Assembly: GCA_047600885.1 (NCBI GenBank)
Contig: JASGKE010000002.1
Span: forward strand, 47,233-111,232
Direction: 5' to 3'
Source: Pseudoxanthomonas sp.
Lineage (GTDB): Bacteria > Pseudomonadota > Gammaproteobacteria > Xanthomonadales > Xanthomonadaceae
Length of the DNA: 64,000 nt
Below are positions 8,922-12,178 of the stretch, one piece after another. Position 1 is the first letter of the stretch. Each line of letters opens with the position of its first letter. A model generated the notes under the pieces. The model was not told the origin of the DNA, searched no databases, and saw only the letters and a list, made by a program, of their open reading frames with translations. Both the position numbers and the translations under genes were made by a program.

Positions 8922-8950
8922 TCCACACGCCGCACTGCAACACGCGACAG

Positions 8951-8976
8951 GCCCCGCTCCGGCGGGGCTTGTCCGT
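8951..8976 (+). terminator. Terminator-like hairpin after phoU
   Basis: gccccgc-tccg-gcggggc (8951-8968), followed by ttgtccgtt. Confidence 0.5.
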
Positions 8977-9015
8977 TCAGGGCCCCGCGCAAACGGCGCG
9001 CTAACGTCGCGCGGC

Positions 9016-9021
9016 TACAAT
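9016..9021 (+). promoter_or_regulatory. Possible -10 element (TACAAT) for the RiPP precursor gene
   Basis: TACAAT lies 48 bp upstream of the ATG at 9069, and a GGGAGAG Shine-Dalgarno sits just before the start. The -35 region is weak. Confidence 0.3.
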
Positions 9022-9068: not shown

Positions 9069-9479
9069 ATGTCCAAGACCACCAAACCCGCCGCCGTCGC
9101 CGTCGCGCTGGCCGGCGGCATCCTGCTGGCCGGCTCGAGCTTCGCGATGGAACCGCTGGCGCAGGGTTACCTGCTGGCCGCACCCGAAGCCGCGAAGGCG
9201 GGCGAAGGCAAGTGCGGTGAGGGCAAATGCGGTGAAGGCAAGTGCGGCATGGCCAAGGCCGACACCGACAAGGACGGCAAGGTCTCGCAGACCGAGTTCG
9301 CCGCCGCCCATCCGGACAAGGCGGCCGACTTCGCCGGCATCGACACCAACAAGGACGGCTTCATCGACGCGGCCGAACACAAGGCCCATGCCGGCGCCAA
9401 GGGTGCCGAGGGCAAGTGCGGTGAAGGCAAGTGCGGCGAGGGCAAGTGCGGCGGCGACAAGAAGACCGGCGACAAGTAA
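9069..9479 (+). CDS. hvfA: Secreted EGKCG-repeat / EF-hand precursor protein (HvfA-like RiPP metallophore precursor)
   Basis: 136-aa ORF with a Sec signal (AVALAGGILLAGSSFA|MEP). Residues 46-60 form three consecutive EGKCG units, and residues 114-128 form three more. Two canonical 12-residue EF-hand loops are present, DTDKDGKVSQTE (65-76) and DTNKDGFIDAAE (92-103). The tail is Lys-rich. The gene lies immediately upstream of the DUF692 and DUF2063 genes. Confidence 0.85.
   Translation: MSKTTKPAAVAVALAGGILLAGSSFAMEPLAQGYLLAAPEAAKAGEGKCGEGKCGEGKCGMAKADTDKDGKVSQTEFAAAHPDKAADFAGIDTNKDGFIDAAEHKAHAGAKGAEGKCGEGKCGEGKCGGDKKTGDK
9204..9248 (+). repeat. Coding tandem repeat, 3 x 15 bp (EGKCG block 1)
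   Basis: gaaggcaagtgcggt gagggcaaatgcggt gaaggcaagtgcggc. The units differ only at wobble positions. Confidence 0.95.
9408..9452 (+). repeat. Coding tandem repeat, 3 x 15 bp (EGKCG block 2)
   Basis: gagggcaagtgcggt gaaggcaagtgcggc gagggcaagtgcggc. This is a near-identical direct repeat of block 1, 204 bp away. Confidence 0.95.
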
Positions 9480-9493
9480 GCCCATGGCCTCGG

Positions 9494-9512
9494 GCCCCGG
9501 CTGAGCCGGGGC
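9494..9512 (+). terminator. Intercistronic stem-loop between the precursor and the modification genes
   Basis: gccccggc-tga-gccggggc, a perfect 8-bp GC stem, followed by only tt. It sits 15 nt after the precursor stop and 17 nt before the DUF692 start. Confidence 0.5.
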
Positions 9513-9528
9513 TTGCGGCATCCACCGG

Positions 9529-10380
9529 ATGACCACACCCCTCCCCACCGCATCGGCCGGCCTTGGCCTGCGCCGCGCGCTGCTCGACGATCTGTTGGCG
9601 GCGCCTGCGGGCGCGTTCGATTTCCTCGAATGCGCGCCCGACAACTGGATCGGCGTGGGTGGTCGCTATGGCGACGCGCTGCGCGCGCTCTCGGTGCGGC
9701 ATCCGATCACCTGTCACGGCCTGTCGCTGTCGCTGGGCGGCATGGCGCCGCTGGACGACACCTTCCTCGCACGCACACGCCGGTTCCTCGACCAGTACGA
9801 CGTCGCGTTGTACAGCGAGCACCTCAGCTACTGCGCGGACGACGGCCATCTGTACGACCTGATGCCGATCCCGTTCACCGAGGAAGCGGTCCACCACGTC
9901 GCCGCACGTATCCGCCAGGCGCAGGACGCGCTGGGCCGGCGCATCGCGGTGGAGAACGTCTCCTACTACGCCGCGCCCTACCAGGCGATGGCGGAGGCCG
10001 ATTTCATCGGCGCGGTCCTCGACGAGGCCGACTGCGACCTGTTGCTCGACGTCAACAACATCTTCGTCAACGCCATTAACCACGGTTACGACGCGCGCGC
10101 GTTCCTGGCCCGCATGCCGTCGGCGCGGATCGCCTCGTACCACGTCGCCGGGCACTACGACGAAGCCGACGACCTGAAGGTCGATACGCACGGCGCGCCG
10201 GTGAAGGACGACGTGTGGTCGCTGCTGTCGCTGGCCTACGCCACCCATGGCGTACGGCCGACCCTGCTCGAGCGCGACTTCAACTTCCCGCCGTTGGCCG
10301 AACTGGCCGCGGAAGTGCAGCGCATCCGCGACCTGCAAGCGCCGCATGCCGGCGCGACCGCGCGCGCCACCCATGGCTGA
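9529..10380 (+). CDS. hvfB: DUF692-family multinuclear non-haem iron oxidase (MNIO; MbnB/HvfB/BufB-like)
   Basis: 283-aa ORF with landmarks I recognise from the DUF692 TIM-barrel family: GLGLRRAL near the N-terminus, [39 protein letters not shown] and YHVAGH. Confidence 0.85.
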
Positions 10381-11134
10381 GCGCCTGCACGACCAGCAGT
10401 TCGCGTTGTCGCGGCACCTGCGCGATCCGTCGGCGAATCCGCCGCCGCCCGGCATCGAGGAACGGCGGCTGGCGATCTATCGCGACCTGTTCTTCAACAA
10501 CATCGAGGGCTTGCTGGCCGGCAATTTCCCGGTGATCCGCAAGACCCTGGGCGACGATGCATGGCGTCGGCTCGTGCGCGACTTCTACGCGAACCACCGC
10601 AGCCACACGCCGCTGTTTCCGGAAGTGGCACGCGAGTTCATCCGCTTCCTCGAGGGTCGCGCGCCCGACCCCGATACGCCGTGGCTGCGCGAGCTCGCGC
10701 ACTACGAATGGGTGGAACTCGCCCTGCAGATCGCCGACGACGCCACACCGGCGCACGACGCCGAGGGCGACCTGCTCGCCGGCATCCCGGTGGTCTCGCC
10801 GTTCGCCTGGGCGCTCGCGTATCAATGGCCCGTGCACCGCATCGGGCCGGACTACCACCCCGACTCTCCGCCGAACGCACCGACCTGCCTGCTGGTACGG
10901 CGTGGCGACGACCAGCAGGTCCACTTCTCCGCCCTCTCGCCCCTCGTCTACCGCTTGATCGAGCTGCTCGGCGAAGGACGGCACACCGGTGCGGACGCGC
11001 TCCGCCAGCTGGCCGACGAAGCGGGCGTCGACGACGCCCCCGCCTTCATCGAACAGGGCACCGCGATGCTGGCGCGCATGCGGCAGGAAGGCACGCTGTT
11101 GGGTACCGACCCAGCAGCACCTCAGAAGCGCTGA
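10373..11134 (+). CDS. hvfC: DUF2063-family partner protein (HvfC/BufC/MbnC-like substrate-recruiting subunit)
   Basis: Internal ATG at 10373 of ORF 10247..11134, overlapping the DUF692 stop by 8 nt (ATGGCTGA). The product [19 protein letters not shown]...[24 protein letters not shown]...[19 protein letters not shown] matches the DUF2063 N-terminal pattern. Confidence 0.8.
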
Positions 11135-11164: not shown

Positions 11165-12178
11165 GTGCCGACCTCTGCTACCCTTCCGCGCATGGAAAAC
11201 ACCGCCGAAACCGCCCCCACCACGCCCATGGCCCGCCGCTTCCGCGGTTACCTGCCCGTGGTGGTCGACGTGGAGACCGGTGGCTTCGACTGGAACCGCC
11301 ACGCCCTGCTCGAACTGGCCGCCGTGCCGCTCGACCTGGACGAGAACGGCTTGCTCGTGCCCGGCACCACGTCCAGCGTGCACCTGCATCCGGCGCCCGG
11401 CCTGGAGATCGATCCCAAGTCGCTGGAAGTCACCGGTATCGACCTGGACCATCCGTTCCGTTTCGCCAAGCACGAGAAGGAGGCGCTGGACCACGTGTTC
11501 GCGCCGGTGCGCGCGGCCGTGAAGAAGCACGGCTGCCAGCGCGCGATCCTGGTGGGCCACAACGCGCACTTCGACCTCAACTTCCTCAATGCCGCGGTGG
11601 CCCGCGTCGGCCACAAACGCAACCCGTTCCATCCTTTCAGCGTGTTCGACACGGTGACGCTGGCGGGCGTGGCCTATGGCCAGACCGTGTTGGCCCGCGC
11701 CGTGGCTGCCGCGGGCTTCAACTGGAATGCGGAAGACGCCCACTCCGCCGTCTACGACGCGGAGCAGACCGCGCGCCTGTTCTGCACGATCGCCAACGCG
11801 TGGCCGCGGCCTGCGGCGACGTCATCGGAGCGTGCCGACGACACTGTCACGCTATACCGCCCCACCGGACCGGAAGAGCTCCAGCTCCTGGTGCAGAGTG
11901 ATTTCAAGCGCTGGCCTCCGCGCTTGCCGGAGCAACCGATCTTCTACCCGGTGACCAACGAGCAGTACGCCGTCGACATCGCGACACAATGGAACATCAA
12001 GGACAGCGGCGTGGGGTACGTCACACGTTTCCAGGTCCGTAAGAGTTTCATGGCGAAGTACCCCATCCAGAAGGTCGGCGGCGACCACCACACCGAATGG
12101 TGGGTGCCGGCGGAAGACCTCGAAGCGCTGAACGACAACATCGTCGGGCCGATCGAAGTGATCGGCGAGTACCGCTAG
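11165..12178 (+). CDS. rnt: Ribonuclease T (DEDDh exonuclease) fused to a ~110-aa C-terminal domain of unknown function
   Basis: The N-terminal ~215 aa contain [27 protein letters not shown] and [14 protein letters not shown] (DEDDh motifs, collinear with E. coli RNase T). The C-terminal segment [109 protein letters not shown] is in the same frame with no stop. The start is uncertain: GTG 11165, ATG 11192 or ATG 11228. Confidence 0.8.

What the first reader, a model, noticed from the sequence alone, without database searches (positions are those of the whole stretch)
9204..9452. Hybrid precursor architecture: two EGKCG triplets flanking a canonical EF-hand pair
Between the two EGKCG x3 blocks lie two textbook 12-residue EF-hand loops, DTDKDGKVSQTE and DTNKDGFIDAAE, with D1, D/N3, D5, G6, a hydrophobic residue at position 8 and E12. 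The 15-residue spacing is typical of a paired EF-hand. One small exported protein therefore combines six predicted post-translationally generated soft-metal (Cu) sites with two hard-metal (Ca2+) sites. I am not aware of any description of an EF-hand module embedded in an MNIO substrate. It could provide Ca-dependent folding or recognition, act as the leader-like docking element for the DUF2063 partner, or couple Ca and Cu binding in the periplasm.
Basis: partly seen in the sequence, partly recalled or inferred. Interest (0 to 1): 0.75.

Follow-up and report, generated by a model that had tools for sequence, protein, structure and literature searches.

The report
EF-hand-containing HvfA copper-peptide precursor
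A small exported protein of a Pseudoxanthomonas-like bacterium carries a calcium-binding EF-hand pair between two blocks of EGKCG repeats that the neighbouring enzymes probably convert into copper-binding groups; this protein class has been published since 2025 and includes the studied calcium sensor EfhP, so only the two-sided layout is a new detail.

Summary
ORF 9069-9479 (136 aa) encodes a Sec-type signal, EGKCG x3 (9204-9248), two canonical EF-hand loops (9261-9296, 9342-9377) and EGKCG x3 (9408-9452). HvfB (MNIO) and HvfC (DUF2063) genes follow directly.

The novelty claim fails. [quoted passage not shown] EfhP binds Ca2+ with Kd 13.7 uM and is encoded next to DUF692/DUF2063 genes. The window protein is 49% identical to a P. 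paraeruginosa EfhP orthologue from the signal peptide through the EF-hand pair.

What I add:
- The family has two layouts. EfhP and the published description have repeats only N-terminal to the EF-hands. The window has repeats on both sides.
- The two-sided layout is common: 36 of 80 species loci, mostly Lysobacterales, in a conserved pstB-phoU-hvfABC-rnt context.
- The N-side junction is rigid: the last Cys lies exactly 6 residues before the first Ca ligand in 167 of 194 proteins.

- The chemistry is now assigned as 5-thiooxazole.
- The model is about one Cu(I) per two modified Cys, so about three sites, not six.
- A 15-residue loop spacing is short, not typical.
- A docking role for the EF-hands is unlikely.

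Verdict: new member of a known kind, modest interest.

The parts
8946..8973 (+). GC-rich 12-bp hairpin just after the phoU stop. It is the likely terminator that separates the pst-phoU operon from the hvf genes.
   Evidence: -37.1 kcal/mol, z = -3.7 against shuffles. Sequence.
8990..9021 (+). Candidate promoter region. It holds the direct repeat CAAAC-N6-CTAAC (8990-9005, 11-bp period) followed by a -10-like TACAAT (9016-9021). It may be a response-regulator-dependent promoter.
   Evidence: The motif is unique in the window (1 match against 0.10 expected). It is conserved at the same place in 8 related loci. No sigma-70 consensus promoter was found. Its function is inferred only.
9069..9479 (+). 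hvfA-type precursor gene (136 aa plus stop), an EF-hand-containing HvfA / Buf_EGKCG|EF-hand chimaera.
   Evidence: The closest named relatives are Pseudoxanthomonas proteins annotated 'HvfA family ... RiPP metallophore' or 'EF-hand domain-containing protein'.
9069..9146 (+). Sec-type signal peptide (aa 1-26, MSKTTKPAAVAVALAGGILLAGSSFA), with a predicted signal peptidase I site after A-F-A.
   Evidence: Sequence features, with F25 invariant and A26 nearly invariant in alignment A1. HvfA is cleaved at the corresponding site in E. coli. SignalP 5.0 predicts a signal peptide for EfhP. No signal-peptide predictor was run here.
9153..9176 (+). Conserved post-signal motif PLAQGYLL (aa 29-36). Its role is unknown. 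It is also present in EF-less and EfhP-type relatives.
   Evidence: G33 and Y34 are invariant and Q32 nearly invariant in A1. Seen in Arenimonas, Pseudomonas and Steroidobacter sequences.
9204..9248 (+). N-terminal EGKCG x3 block (Cys49, Cys54, Cys59). These are the predicted HvfBC target sites (Cys to 5-thiooxazole).
   Evidence: AlphaFold2 pLDDT is below 50, so the block is predicted disordered.
9249..9407 (+). EF-hand pair domain (aa 61-113). Loop 1 is DTDKDGKVSQTE (nt 9261-9296) and loop 2 is DTNKDGFIDAAE (nt 9342-9377).
   Evidence: Pfam hits above their cut-offs. AlphaFold2 pLDDT is 76-89, with helix-loop-strand elements and paired strands 71-73 and 98-100. The best Foldseek matches are EF-hand pairs at rmsd 2.0-2.4 A over about 60 residues. 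Ligand positions are invariant.
9408..9452 (+). C-terminal EGKCG x3 block (Cys117, Cys122, Cys127). These are predicted HvfBC target sites. This second block distinguishes the window's two-sided layout from the EfhP type.
9487..9519 (+). GC-rich hairpin between the hvfA stop and the hvfB start, with no U tract. It may be a partial terminator or mRNA stabiliser that would give an excess of precursor over enzymes.
   Evidence: -30.3 kcal/mol, z = -2.2. Its function is inferred.
9529..10380 (+). hvfB: an MNIO (DUF692 / MbnB_TglH_ChrH family) maturase.
   Evidence: Pfam PF05114 E = 9.5e-102. NCBIfam NF003818 HvfB family, 430 bits against a cut-off of 360.
10373..11134 (+). hvfC: the DUF2063 + NGO1945_C partner protein (RRE-containing). 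Its ATG overlaps the hvfB stop by 8 nt.
   Evidence: Pfam PF09836 and PF22106. NCBIfam NF050145, 307.5 bits against a cut-off of 142. Start codon read.

Best explanation
ORF 9069-9479 is the precursor gene of a three-gene hvfABC-type RiPP cluster. Its product belongs to the published class of EGKCG-repeat / EF-hand chimaeras, whose characterised member is P. aeruginosa EfhP.

Proposed mechanism, with shown and inferred steps marked:
1. In the cytoplasm, HvfB (a multinuclear non-haem iron oxidase) and its partner HvfC oxidise the six Cys of the two EGKCG x3 blocks to 5-thiooxazoles. This is inferred by homology and shown experimentally for HvfA, FonA and the N. gonorrhoeae homologue.
2. The largely disordered protein is exported by Sec and its signal peptide is cut after AFA (inferred).
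3. In the periplasm, where Ca2+ follows external levels, the central 53-residue EF-hand pair binds Ca2+ and folds. This is inferred from canonical, invariant ligands and from EfhP (Kd 13.7 uM, structure stabilised by Ca2+).
4. The flanking thiooxazole blocks bind Cu(I), roughly one Cu per two heterocycles, which buffers or senses periplasmic copper. This is inferred from oxazolin, fontiphorin and the bufferins.

The EF-hand pair is thus a folded, Ca-responsive core inserted into a disordered metallophore. I think it most likely acts as a Ca-dependent structural or signalling module, not as a recognition element for the maturase.
For: Family scores and gene order:
- The precursor domain and both enzymes pass curated NCBIfam/Pfam cut-offs.
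- The order precursor-MNIO-DUF2063 is the one conserved in this class.
- It holds in 32 of 36 two-sided loci and in the P. paraeruginosa efhP locus.

Homology to EfhP:
- 49% identity, E = 2e-32, over aa 3-107.
- Both proteins have the same 27-residue loop-to-loop offset.

Fold:
- AlphaFold2 is confident only for aa 59-111, as a helix-loop-helix pair with a short beta bridge. Both EGKCG blocks are predicted disordered.
- The best Foldseek matches are polcalcin and calmodulin lobes.

Conservation:
- D1, D/N3, D5, G6 and E12 of both loops are essentially invariant in 194 distinct two-sided proteins. The loop-finding pattern allowed alternatives at these positions.
- All six EGKCG units are kept by synonymous-only variation.

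Substrate rules:
- HvfBC modifies every Cys of AEGKCGEGKCG motifs and needs no leader.
- FonBC needs at least two repeats. Both blocks here have three.

Against: - Nothing was measured for this protein. Modification, export, Ca2+ binding and Cu binding all rest on homology.
- The strict HvfA equivalog model is not met (21.4 bits against a cut-off of 95). EfhP itself has never been shown to be modified.
- No DoxX/HvfX gene and no copper-resistance genes are adjacent. The neighbours are pst-phoU and RNase T.
- Published EfhP phenotypes concern Ca2+ signalling, iron uptake and virulence, not copper.
- Many P. fluorescens-group relatives lack adjacent hvfB/hvfC genes. The EF/EGKCG protein may therefore have a role that does not depend on modification.
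- The entering helix of EF-hand 1 is only about 4 residues long in the model, so loop 1 may bind Ca2+ weakly. ITC on EfhP gave N of about 1.
Confidence: 0.75

Rival explanations
1. The protein is primarily a periplasmic Ca2+ sensor, like EfhP. In this view the EGKCG blocks, modified or not, are an auxiliary input (Cu or Fe sensing, or partner binding) and not a copper-sequestering metallophore. Ca2+ binding would expose hydrophobic surface and transmit a signal to partner proteins.
For: EfhP shows Ca-dependent hydrophobic exposure and NMR shifts, and it controls pyocyanin, iron uptake and virulence. The EfhP authors propose dual Ca/metal sensing through the EGKCG Cys. There are no copper genes or DoxX nearby. 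Relatives without adjacent hvfBC exist. A possible response-regulator box lies upstream.
Against: The two-sided type lacks EfhP's conserved C-terminal helix (EAYxxLRxxYEANGK...), which may be the signalling surface, and carries a second repeat block in its place. Tight linkage to hvfB and hvfC in 32 of 36 two-sided loci argues that the modified Cys are central. EF-less precursors occupy the same locus in Arenimonas, which suggests the core function is that of the repeats.
Confidence: 0.3
2. One reading: the EF-hand pair is the leader-like docking element that HvfC (the RRE protein) recognises, so it is required for modification of the flanking repeats.
For: HvfC, not HvfB, binds HvfA. An intact N-terminal region improves the completeness of modification in HvfA. 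The EF-hand pair is the only folded part of the precursor.
Against: HvfA truncated to its repeats is still modified. FonBC modifies a minimal two-repeat peptide in vitro. Arenimonas precursors in the orthologous hvfB-hvfC-rnt locus have no EF-hands at all. At cytoplasmic Ca2+ levels a site with Kd of about 14 uM would be mostly empty and the domain poorly folded (inference).
Confidence: 0.08
3. The compact EF-hand pair is a lanmodulin-like site tuned for lanthanides or another hard cation, not Ca2+.
For: The closest solved structures by sequence are lanmodulins (6mi5, E = 1.1e-7; 8fns), which share the short inter-loop spacing. NCBIfam LanM gives a weak hit (E = 1.2e-5). Loop 2 has Asp at position 9, as LanM loops do.
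Against: The LanM equivalog scores 25.3 bits against a cut-off of 135. There is no Pro at loop position 2 (a lanmodulin hallmark that I take from general knowledge), and there are two loops, not four. AlphaFold2 and Foldseek give a conventional paired EF-hand. EfhP was reported to be Ca2+-selective.
Confidence: 0.04

Closest known systems
[quoted passage not shown]
   Same: N-terminal hydrophobic segment, EGKCG motifs, two EF-hand_5 modules, and a gene directly upstream of MNIO and DUF2063 genes. The EGKCG part is predicted to be unstructured.
   Different: [quoted passage not shown] The window protein has a second EGKCG x3 block after the EF-hands. I found this two-sided layout in 36 of 80 species loci and in 31 of 52 cluster representatives under 260 aa that combine KCG repeats with EF-hand loops on one or both sides.
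EfhP (PA4107) of Pseudomonas aeruginosa
   Same: 49% identity from the signal peptide through both EF-hands to the P. paraeruginosa orthologue. Same 27-residue loop offset, very similar loops (DTDHDGKVSRAE and DSDHDGFISEAE), EGKCG repeats, and the efhP-DUF692-DUF2063 gene order.
   Different: EfhP has four EGKCG repeats, all N-terminal, with 9 residues (not 6) between the last Cys and loop 1. It also has a Cys-free C-terminal helix (EAYEHLRKTYEANGKPMPAGLF) where the window has EGKCG x3. EfhP was studied only as an unmodified recombinant Ca sensor.
HvfA / oxazolin of non-typeable Haemophilus influenzae, with HvfB and HvfC
   Same: A Sec signal, AEGKCGEGKCG-type repeats totalling six modified Cys, and an HvfB/HvfC pair of the same NCBIfam families. 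The product binds Cu(I).
   Different: HvfA has no EF-hands, has an N-terminal disulphide region, carries its repeats as three spaced pairs, and its operon includes a DoxX-like HvfX gene. The window protein fails the HvfA equivalog model (21.4 bits against 95) and has no DoxX neighbour.
Fontiphorin (FonA/FonBC) and gonophorin, the 'captophorin' MNIO-PME1 products
   Same: EGKCG repeats converted to 5-thiooxazoles by an MNIO plus a DUF2063 partner. At least two repeats are required. The products bind Cu.
   Different: No EF-hand module is reported in those precursors.
Lanmodulin (LanM)
   Same: Compact EF-hand loops with short inter-loop spacing. It is the best PDB match by sequence.
   Different: LanM has four loops and a lanthanide-selective fold, and (from general knowledge) Pro at loop position 2. 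The window protein fails the LanM equivalog cut-off, lacks Pro2 and has only two loops.

Membership tests
HvfA family RiPP metallophore precursors (NCBIfam NF050137 / NF050188) | Repeated KCGExKCG motif that passes the curated domain model | tested here: met
   NF050137 scores 34.1 bits against a cut-off of 19.5, with 4 matched stretches. Six EGKCG units are present.
HvfA family RiPP metallophore precursors (NCBIfam NF050137 / NF050188) | Full-length equivalog match to H. influenzae-type HvfA | tested here: not met
   NF050188 scores 21.4 bits against a cut-off of 95. The protein is an HvfA-family member, not an HvfA equivalog.
HvfA family RiPP metallophore precursors (NCBIfam NF050137 / NF050188) | Gene immediately followed by HvfB (MNIO) and HvfC (DUF2063 partner) genes | tested here: met
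   HvfB scores 430 bits against 360 and HvfC scores 307.5 bits against 142. Coordinates are 9529-10380 and 10373-11134.
HvfA family RiPP metallophore precursors (NCBIfam NF050137 / NF050188) | N-terminal Sec signal peptide with a signal peptidase I site | tested here: inconclusive
   A basic n-region, a hydrophobic core and a conserved A-F-A site are present. No signal-peptide predictor or experiment was available.
HvfA family RiPP metallophore precursors (NCBIfam NF050137 / NF050188) | Cys residues converted to 5-thiooxazole (earlier assigned as oxazolone/thioamide) and Cu(I) binding | not testable with these tools
   This needs co-expression, mass spectrometry, UV, NMR and Cu competition assays.
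[quoted passage not shown] | EGKCG motifs plus two EF-hand_5 domains in one MNIO-linked precursor | tested here: met
   Pfam EF-hand_5 scores 34.7 bits against 25.9, with two stretches. EGKCG x6 is present. MNIO adjacency is shown.
[quoted passage not shown] | Domain order as published: a short N-terminal Buf_EGKCG domain followed by C-terminal EF-hands | tested here: not met
   A second EGKCG x3 block follows the EF-hands. The window belongs to a two-sided sub-layout.
EfhP orthologues | Sequence similarity across the signal peptide, the repeats and the EF-hand pair, with the same loop spacing | tested here: met
   49% identity, E = 2e-32, over aa 3-107 against the P. paraeruginosa protein from locus L029. 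The loop offset is 27 in both.
EfhP orthologues | Conserved Cys-free C-terminal helix (EAYxxLRxxYEANGKxMPxxLF) | tested here: not met
   The helix is absent and EGKCG x3 plus GDKKTGDK stands in its place.
EfhP orthologues | Micromolar, selective Ca2+ binding that depends on loop positions 1 and 12 | not testable with these tools
   The ligand residues are present and invariant. The measurements exist only for EfhP.
Canonical EF-hand pair (Pfam PF13202 / PF00036) | 12-residue loop with D1, D/N3, D/N5, G6, a hydrophobic residue at 8 and E12, above the Pfam gathering score | tested here: met
.
Canonical EF-hand pair (Pfam PF13202 / PF00036) | Two helix-loop-helix units packed as a pair with a short beta bridge between the loops | tested here: met
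   The AlphaFold2 elements are H61-64, E71-73, H74-80, H82-91, E98-100 and H101-113 at pLDDT 76-89. Foldseek matches EF-hand lobes at rmsd 2.0-2.4 A, although its E-values are weak (0.08-0.3) for so short a domain.
Canonical EF-hand pair (Pfam PF13202 / PF00036) | Calmodulin-like spacing of about 24 residues between loops, with full-length entering and exiting helices | tested here: not met
   There are 15 residues between the loops, and the entering helix of EF-hand 1 is about 4 residues long. This is a compact bacterial variant.
Lanmodulin | LanM equivalog score, four loops, and Pro at loop position 2 (the Pro2 hallmark is taken from general knowledge, not from a tool result) | tested here: not met
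   NF053806 scores 25.3 bits against a cut-off of 135. There are two loops, with Thr at position 2.
Bufferins (BufA1 DUF2282 / BufB) | DUF2282 or Buf_6/12Cys precursor and a BufB equivalog maturase | tested here: not met
   The precursor has no DUF2282 hit. The MNIO scores 268.4 bits against BufB, below the cut-off of 310, and passes HvfB.

The most novel reading that the evidence does not exclude
In the two-sided layout the EF-hand pair may act as a Ca2+-operated clamp. The N- and C-termini of an EF-hand pair emerge side by side, because helices I and IV pack antiparallel. Ca2+-driven folding in the periplasm would therefore bring the two thiooxazole blocks together and create inter-block Cu(I) sites. 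Copper chelation would then be gated by calcium, or calcium sensing modulated by copper.

The rigid junction is the hint: the last Cys lies exactly 6 residues before the first Ca ligand in 167 of 194 proteins. So is the replacement of EfhP's C-terminal helix by a second repeat block. Neither feature is described in the literature I could search.
Probability: 0.15. Interest if true: 0.7.

Novelty: new member of a known kind. Interest (0 to 1): 0.3.

Why it matters
EGKCG/MNIO metallophores (oxazolin, fontiphorin, bufferins) are an active field, and EfhP is one of the few characterised bacterial Ca2+ sensors. Only one 2025 survey has connected the two literatures, and nobody has shown that an EF-hand-containing precursor is actually modified. 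The window gives a clean three-gene example of the commoner but undescribed two-sided layout, from an environmental Lysobacterales genome. Such a system could test whether calcium and copper binding are coupled in one periplasmic protein. As a discovery it is incremental, because the class, its likely chemistry and the Ca2+ binding of a homologue are all published.

Tried and rejected
- My first EF-loop pattern had one position too many and found nothing. I corrected it.
- My first hvfC query was translated in the wrong frame and gave spurious results. I redid it from ATG 10373.
- I looked for P. aeruginosa EfhP itself among the 150 cluster representatives and with a second homology search seeded with the N-only protein P0209. 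The exact protein was not returned. The P. paraeruginosa orthologue came from the genome scan (L029). It matches the published loop 1 exactly and loop 2 at 11 of 12 positions.
- The profile search of representatives was dominated by generic multi-EF-hand proteins: 17444 hits with E<=1e-3 but only 42 with E<=1e-30. That count says little about the size of the family.
- XopAW, lanmodulin and Dockerin hits are all far below their cut-offs, and I rejected them as memberships.
- The supplementary tables of PMC12452194 gave no further architecture detail.
- The sigma-70 promoter scan found nothing.
- No DoxX or copper-homeostasis gene was found within about 5 kb.
- I could not measure the distance between the termini in the AlphaFold2 model because coordinates are not exposed. 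The 'clamp' idea therefore rests on general EF-hand geometry.
- Literature searches for EF-hand plus MNIO and for EfhP plus copper found no experimental work on modification of an EF-hand-containing precursor.
Full report
**What is there**

The + strand ORF 9069-9479 encodes a 136-aa protein:

MSKTTKPAAVAVALAGGILLAGSSFA|MEPLAQGYLLAAPEAAKAG-(EGKCG)3-MAKA-DTDKDGKVSQTE-FAAAHPDKAADFAGI-DTNKDGFIDAAE-HKAHAGAKGA-(EGKCG)3-GDKKTGDK

- The finding's coordinates 9204-9452 run exactly from the first Glu of the first repeat to the last Gly of the sixth.
- A six-frame scan of the whole window finds GKCG only at these six places.
- A canonical EF-loop pattern is found only at the two loops, 27 codons apart. 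Shuffled windows give 0.02 matches.
- Pfam EF-hand_5 and EF-hand_1 and the NCBIfam HvfA-family repeat model all pass their curated cut-offs.
- The six repeat units occur in five nucleotide versions that differ only at synonymous sites, so the peptide is what is conserved.

**Context**

- Upstream lie pstS-pstC-pstA-pstB-phoU, ending in a strong hairpin.
- Directly downstream lie an MNIO gene that passes the HvfB equivalog model (430 bits against a cut-off of 360) and a DUF2063/NGO1945_C gene that passes the HvfC model (307.5 bits against 142). The hvfC start codon overlaps the hvfB stop.
- RNase T follows. No DoxX/HvfX gene or copper-resistance gene is nearby.
- The closest relatives are Pseudoxanthomonas proteins (96-99% identity). 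NCBI and UniRef name them 'HvfA family oxazolone/thioamide-modified RiPP metallophore' or 'EF-hand domain-containing protein'.

**Fold**

- With a 20-sequence alignment, AlphaFold2 is confident only for residues 59-111 (pLDDT 76-89).
- The confident region is a short helix, loop and strand, then two helices, loop and strand, then a long helix. The two strands are paired as in a classical EF-hand pair.
- The signal peptide and both EGKCG blocks score below 50, so they are predicted disordered.
- The best Foldseek matches in the PDB are EF-hand pairs (polcalcin Phl p 7, calmodulin lobes) at 2.0-2.4 A over about 60 residues. E-values are weak because the domain is short.
- By sequence, the nearest solved structures are lanmodulins. 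This reflects the unusually short gap between the loops.
- That gap is 15 residues. Calmodulin has 24. The loop-to-loop offset of 27 is identical to that of EfhP and is the mode in the family (160 of 194 proteins).
This is a compact bacterial EF-hand pair.

**What is already known**

- A full-text search for EGKCG led to Microbial Genomics 2025 (PMC12452194). That paper surveys MNIO substrates and defines a 'Buf_EGKCG/oxazolin' family of about 2,000 proteins.
[quoted passage not shown] - EfhP (PA4107) was noted in 2014 to be operonic with DUF692 and DUF2063 genes.
- EfhP binds Ca2+ selectively with Kd 13.7 uM. It loses binding when D1/E12 of the loops are mutated, and Ca2+ stabilises its structure.
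- Its four EGKCG repeats were pointed out in 2024.
- The central novelty claim of the finding therefore does not hold.

**Chemistry and substrate rules**

- HvfB and HvfC modify all six Cys of the AEGKCGEGKCG motifs of H. influenzae HvfA. HvfC binds the precursor.
- Neither the signal peptide nor the N-terminal region is required. Fragments reduced to the repeats are still modified.
- FonBC modifies a minimal peptide only if it contains two repeats. Both blocks in the window have three.
- The modification, first assigned as oxazolone/thioamide, has been reassigned to 5-thiooxazole for fontiphorin, oxazolin and the N. gonorrhoeae product.
- Copper binding fits about one Cu(I) per two modified residues. 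Six Cys predict roughly three sites, not six.
- Cu-loaded EGKCG peptides tend to aggregate. A soluble folded core might mitigate this (my inference).

**What I can add: two layouts**

I recovered the EfhP orthologue of P. paraeruginosa from a species-level genome scan (L029). It is 155 aa, loop 1 is identical to the published EfhP loop, and hvfB and hvfC lie downstream.

| Feature | EfhP type ('N-only') | Window type (two-sided) |
|---|---|---|
| EGKCG repeats | Four, all N-terminal to the EF-hands | Three before and three after the EF-hands |
| After the EF-hands | Cys-free helix EAYEHLRKTYEANGKPMPAGLF | EGKCG x3 plus GDKKTGDK |
| Last Cys to loop-1 Asp1 | 9 residues | 6 residues |
| Seen in | Pseudomonas, Stenotrophomonas, Steroidobacter, Cupriavidus | Mostly Lysobacterales |
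| Species loci (of 80) | 41; 18 have adjacent hvfB | 36; 32 have adjacent hvfB |
| 50%-identity cluster representatives | 13 | 31 |

- The N-only layout matches the published description. The window protein is 49% identical to the L029 protein up to the end of the EF-hand pair and then diverges.
- All 120 closest homologues have Cys on both sides of the EF-hands; by KCG-motif count, 116 are two-sided.
- Eight further cluster representatives have repeats only C-terminal to the EF-hands.
- The two-sided loci include Pseudoxanthomonas, Luteimonas, Lysobacter, Thermomonas, Vulcaniibacterium, Chiayiivirga and Tahibacter.
- They share a conserved pstB-phoU-hvfA-hvfB-hvfC-rnt arrangement.
- In Arenimonas, the hvfB-hvfC-rnt locus carries a precursor with the same signal and LAQGY motif and 8-10 KCG units, but no EF-hands. 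The EF module has therefore been gained or lost within an orthologous locus and is not needed by the maturase.
- Repeat copy number varies even among near-identical strains, for example 2+3 against 3+3.
- The N-side junction is rigid: the last Cys lies exactly 6 residues before loop-1 Asp1 in 167 of 194 distinct two-sided proteins. The C-side distance varies, with 9 and 14 residues most common.

**Mechanism**

The best-supported reading has four steps.
1. Cytoplasmic HvfBC converts the six Cys to thiooxazoles (by homology).
2. The mostly disordered protein is exported by Sec and cleaved after AFA (by sequence features and by analogy with HvfA and EfhP).
3. The EF-hand pair binds Ca2+ and folds only in the periplasm. 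A site with Kd of about 14 uM would be largely empty at cytoplasmic Ca2+ levels (inference).
4. The flanking blocks bind Cu(I).

What the EF-hand pair contributes remains open. Options are a solubilising, Ca-dependent structural core, a signalling surface as in EfhP, or true Ca/Cu coupling. The docking hypothesis is the least likely, for the reasons given above. A lanmodulin-like lanthanide role is improbable: the equivalog cut-off is missed by a wide margin, there is no Pro at loop position 2, and there are only two loops.

**Novelty and score**

The class, the gene neighbourhood, the likely chemistry and the Ca2+ binding of a homologue are all published. NCBI already annotates the protein as an HvfA-family member. 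The two-sided layout and its rigid junction are details I did not find described. No one has shown modification of any EF-hand-containing precursor. I rate the finding a new member of a known kind, with interest 0.3.

The most novel reading not excluded is a Ca2+-operated clamp that brings the two thiooxazole blocks together. I give it a probability of about 0.15, with interest of about 0.7 if true.

Noticed in passing
window 8990-9021: The direct repeat CAAAC-N6-CTAAC (11-bp period) lies 10 nt upstream of a TACAAT -10-like hexamer, about 50 nt before the hvfA start. It is unique in the window (1 match against 0.10 expected). The same C[AT][AT]AC-N6-[CA]TAAC motif sits at the equivalent place in 8 of 80 related loci, mostly Pseudoxanthomonas. 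It looks like an OmpR/PhoB-type response-regulator box. efhP in P. aeruginosa is Ca-induced, partly through CarR.
   Followed up: partly
window 9487-9519: An 11-bp GC-rich hairpin without a U tract lies between the hvfA stop and the hvfB start (-30.3 kcal/mol, z = -2.2). It may be a partial terminator or mRNA-stabilising element that gives an excess of precursor over maturase.
   Followed up: partly
window 11165-12178: The RNase T ORF is 337 aa. The RNase T equivalog covers aa 22-216. A 121-aa C-terminal extension (nt 11813-12175) follows with no Pfam hit even at E<=10. It has no tblastn match in any of the 80 related loci, including Pseudoxanthomonas loci whose precursor is 98-99% identical. 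It may be a strain-specific in-frame fusion or insertion next to an ICMT-like gene and a Macro-domain gene.
   Followed up: partly
L058 (4992-5369) and L078 (4992-5411), Arenimonas terrae and A. malthae: In the same hvfB-hvfC-rnt locus the precursor has the same signal and LAQGY motif and 8-10 KCG units, but no EF-hands. The EF module was gained or lost within an orthologous locus.
   Followed up: partly
L014, L019-L028, L030, L033, L034 and others (Pseudomonas fluorescens group): N-only EF-hand/EGKCG proteins with 2-3 repeats have no hvfB or hvfC within 5 kb. This agrees with the 2014 observation for Pf0-1. Whether these proteins are modified in trans or act unmodified is unknown.
   Followed up: no
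window 9153-9176 (aa 29-36, PLAQGYLL): A motif directly after the predicted signal cleavage site is conserved across the two-sided, N-only and EF-less precursors, with invariant Gly and Tyr. Its function is unknown. It could be a recognition or sorting element.
   Followed up: no
window 9249-9407 versus PDB 6mi5 and 8fns: By sequence, the closest solved structures to the EF-hand pair are lanmodulins (E = 1e-7), because of the short inter-loop spacing. Loop 2 carries Asp at position 9, as lanmodulin loops do, but there is no Pro at position 2.
   Followed up: partly
window 9069-9479 versus P0003, P0005, P0009 and others: The EGKCG copy number is polymorphic among 90-98% identical Pseudoxanthomonas proteins: two or three units in the N-terminal block, with extra spaced pairs in the C-terminal block. 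This is consistent with slippage of the 15-nt units.
   Followed up: partly
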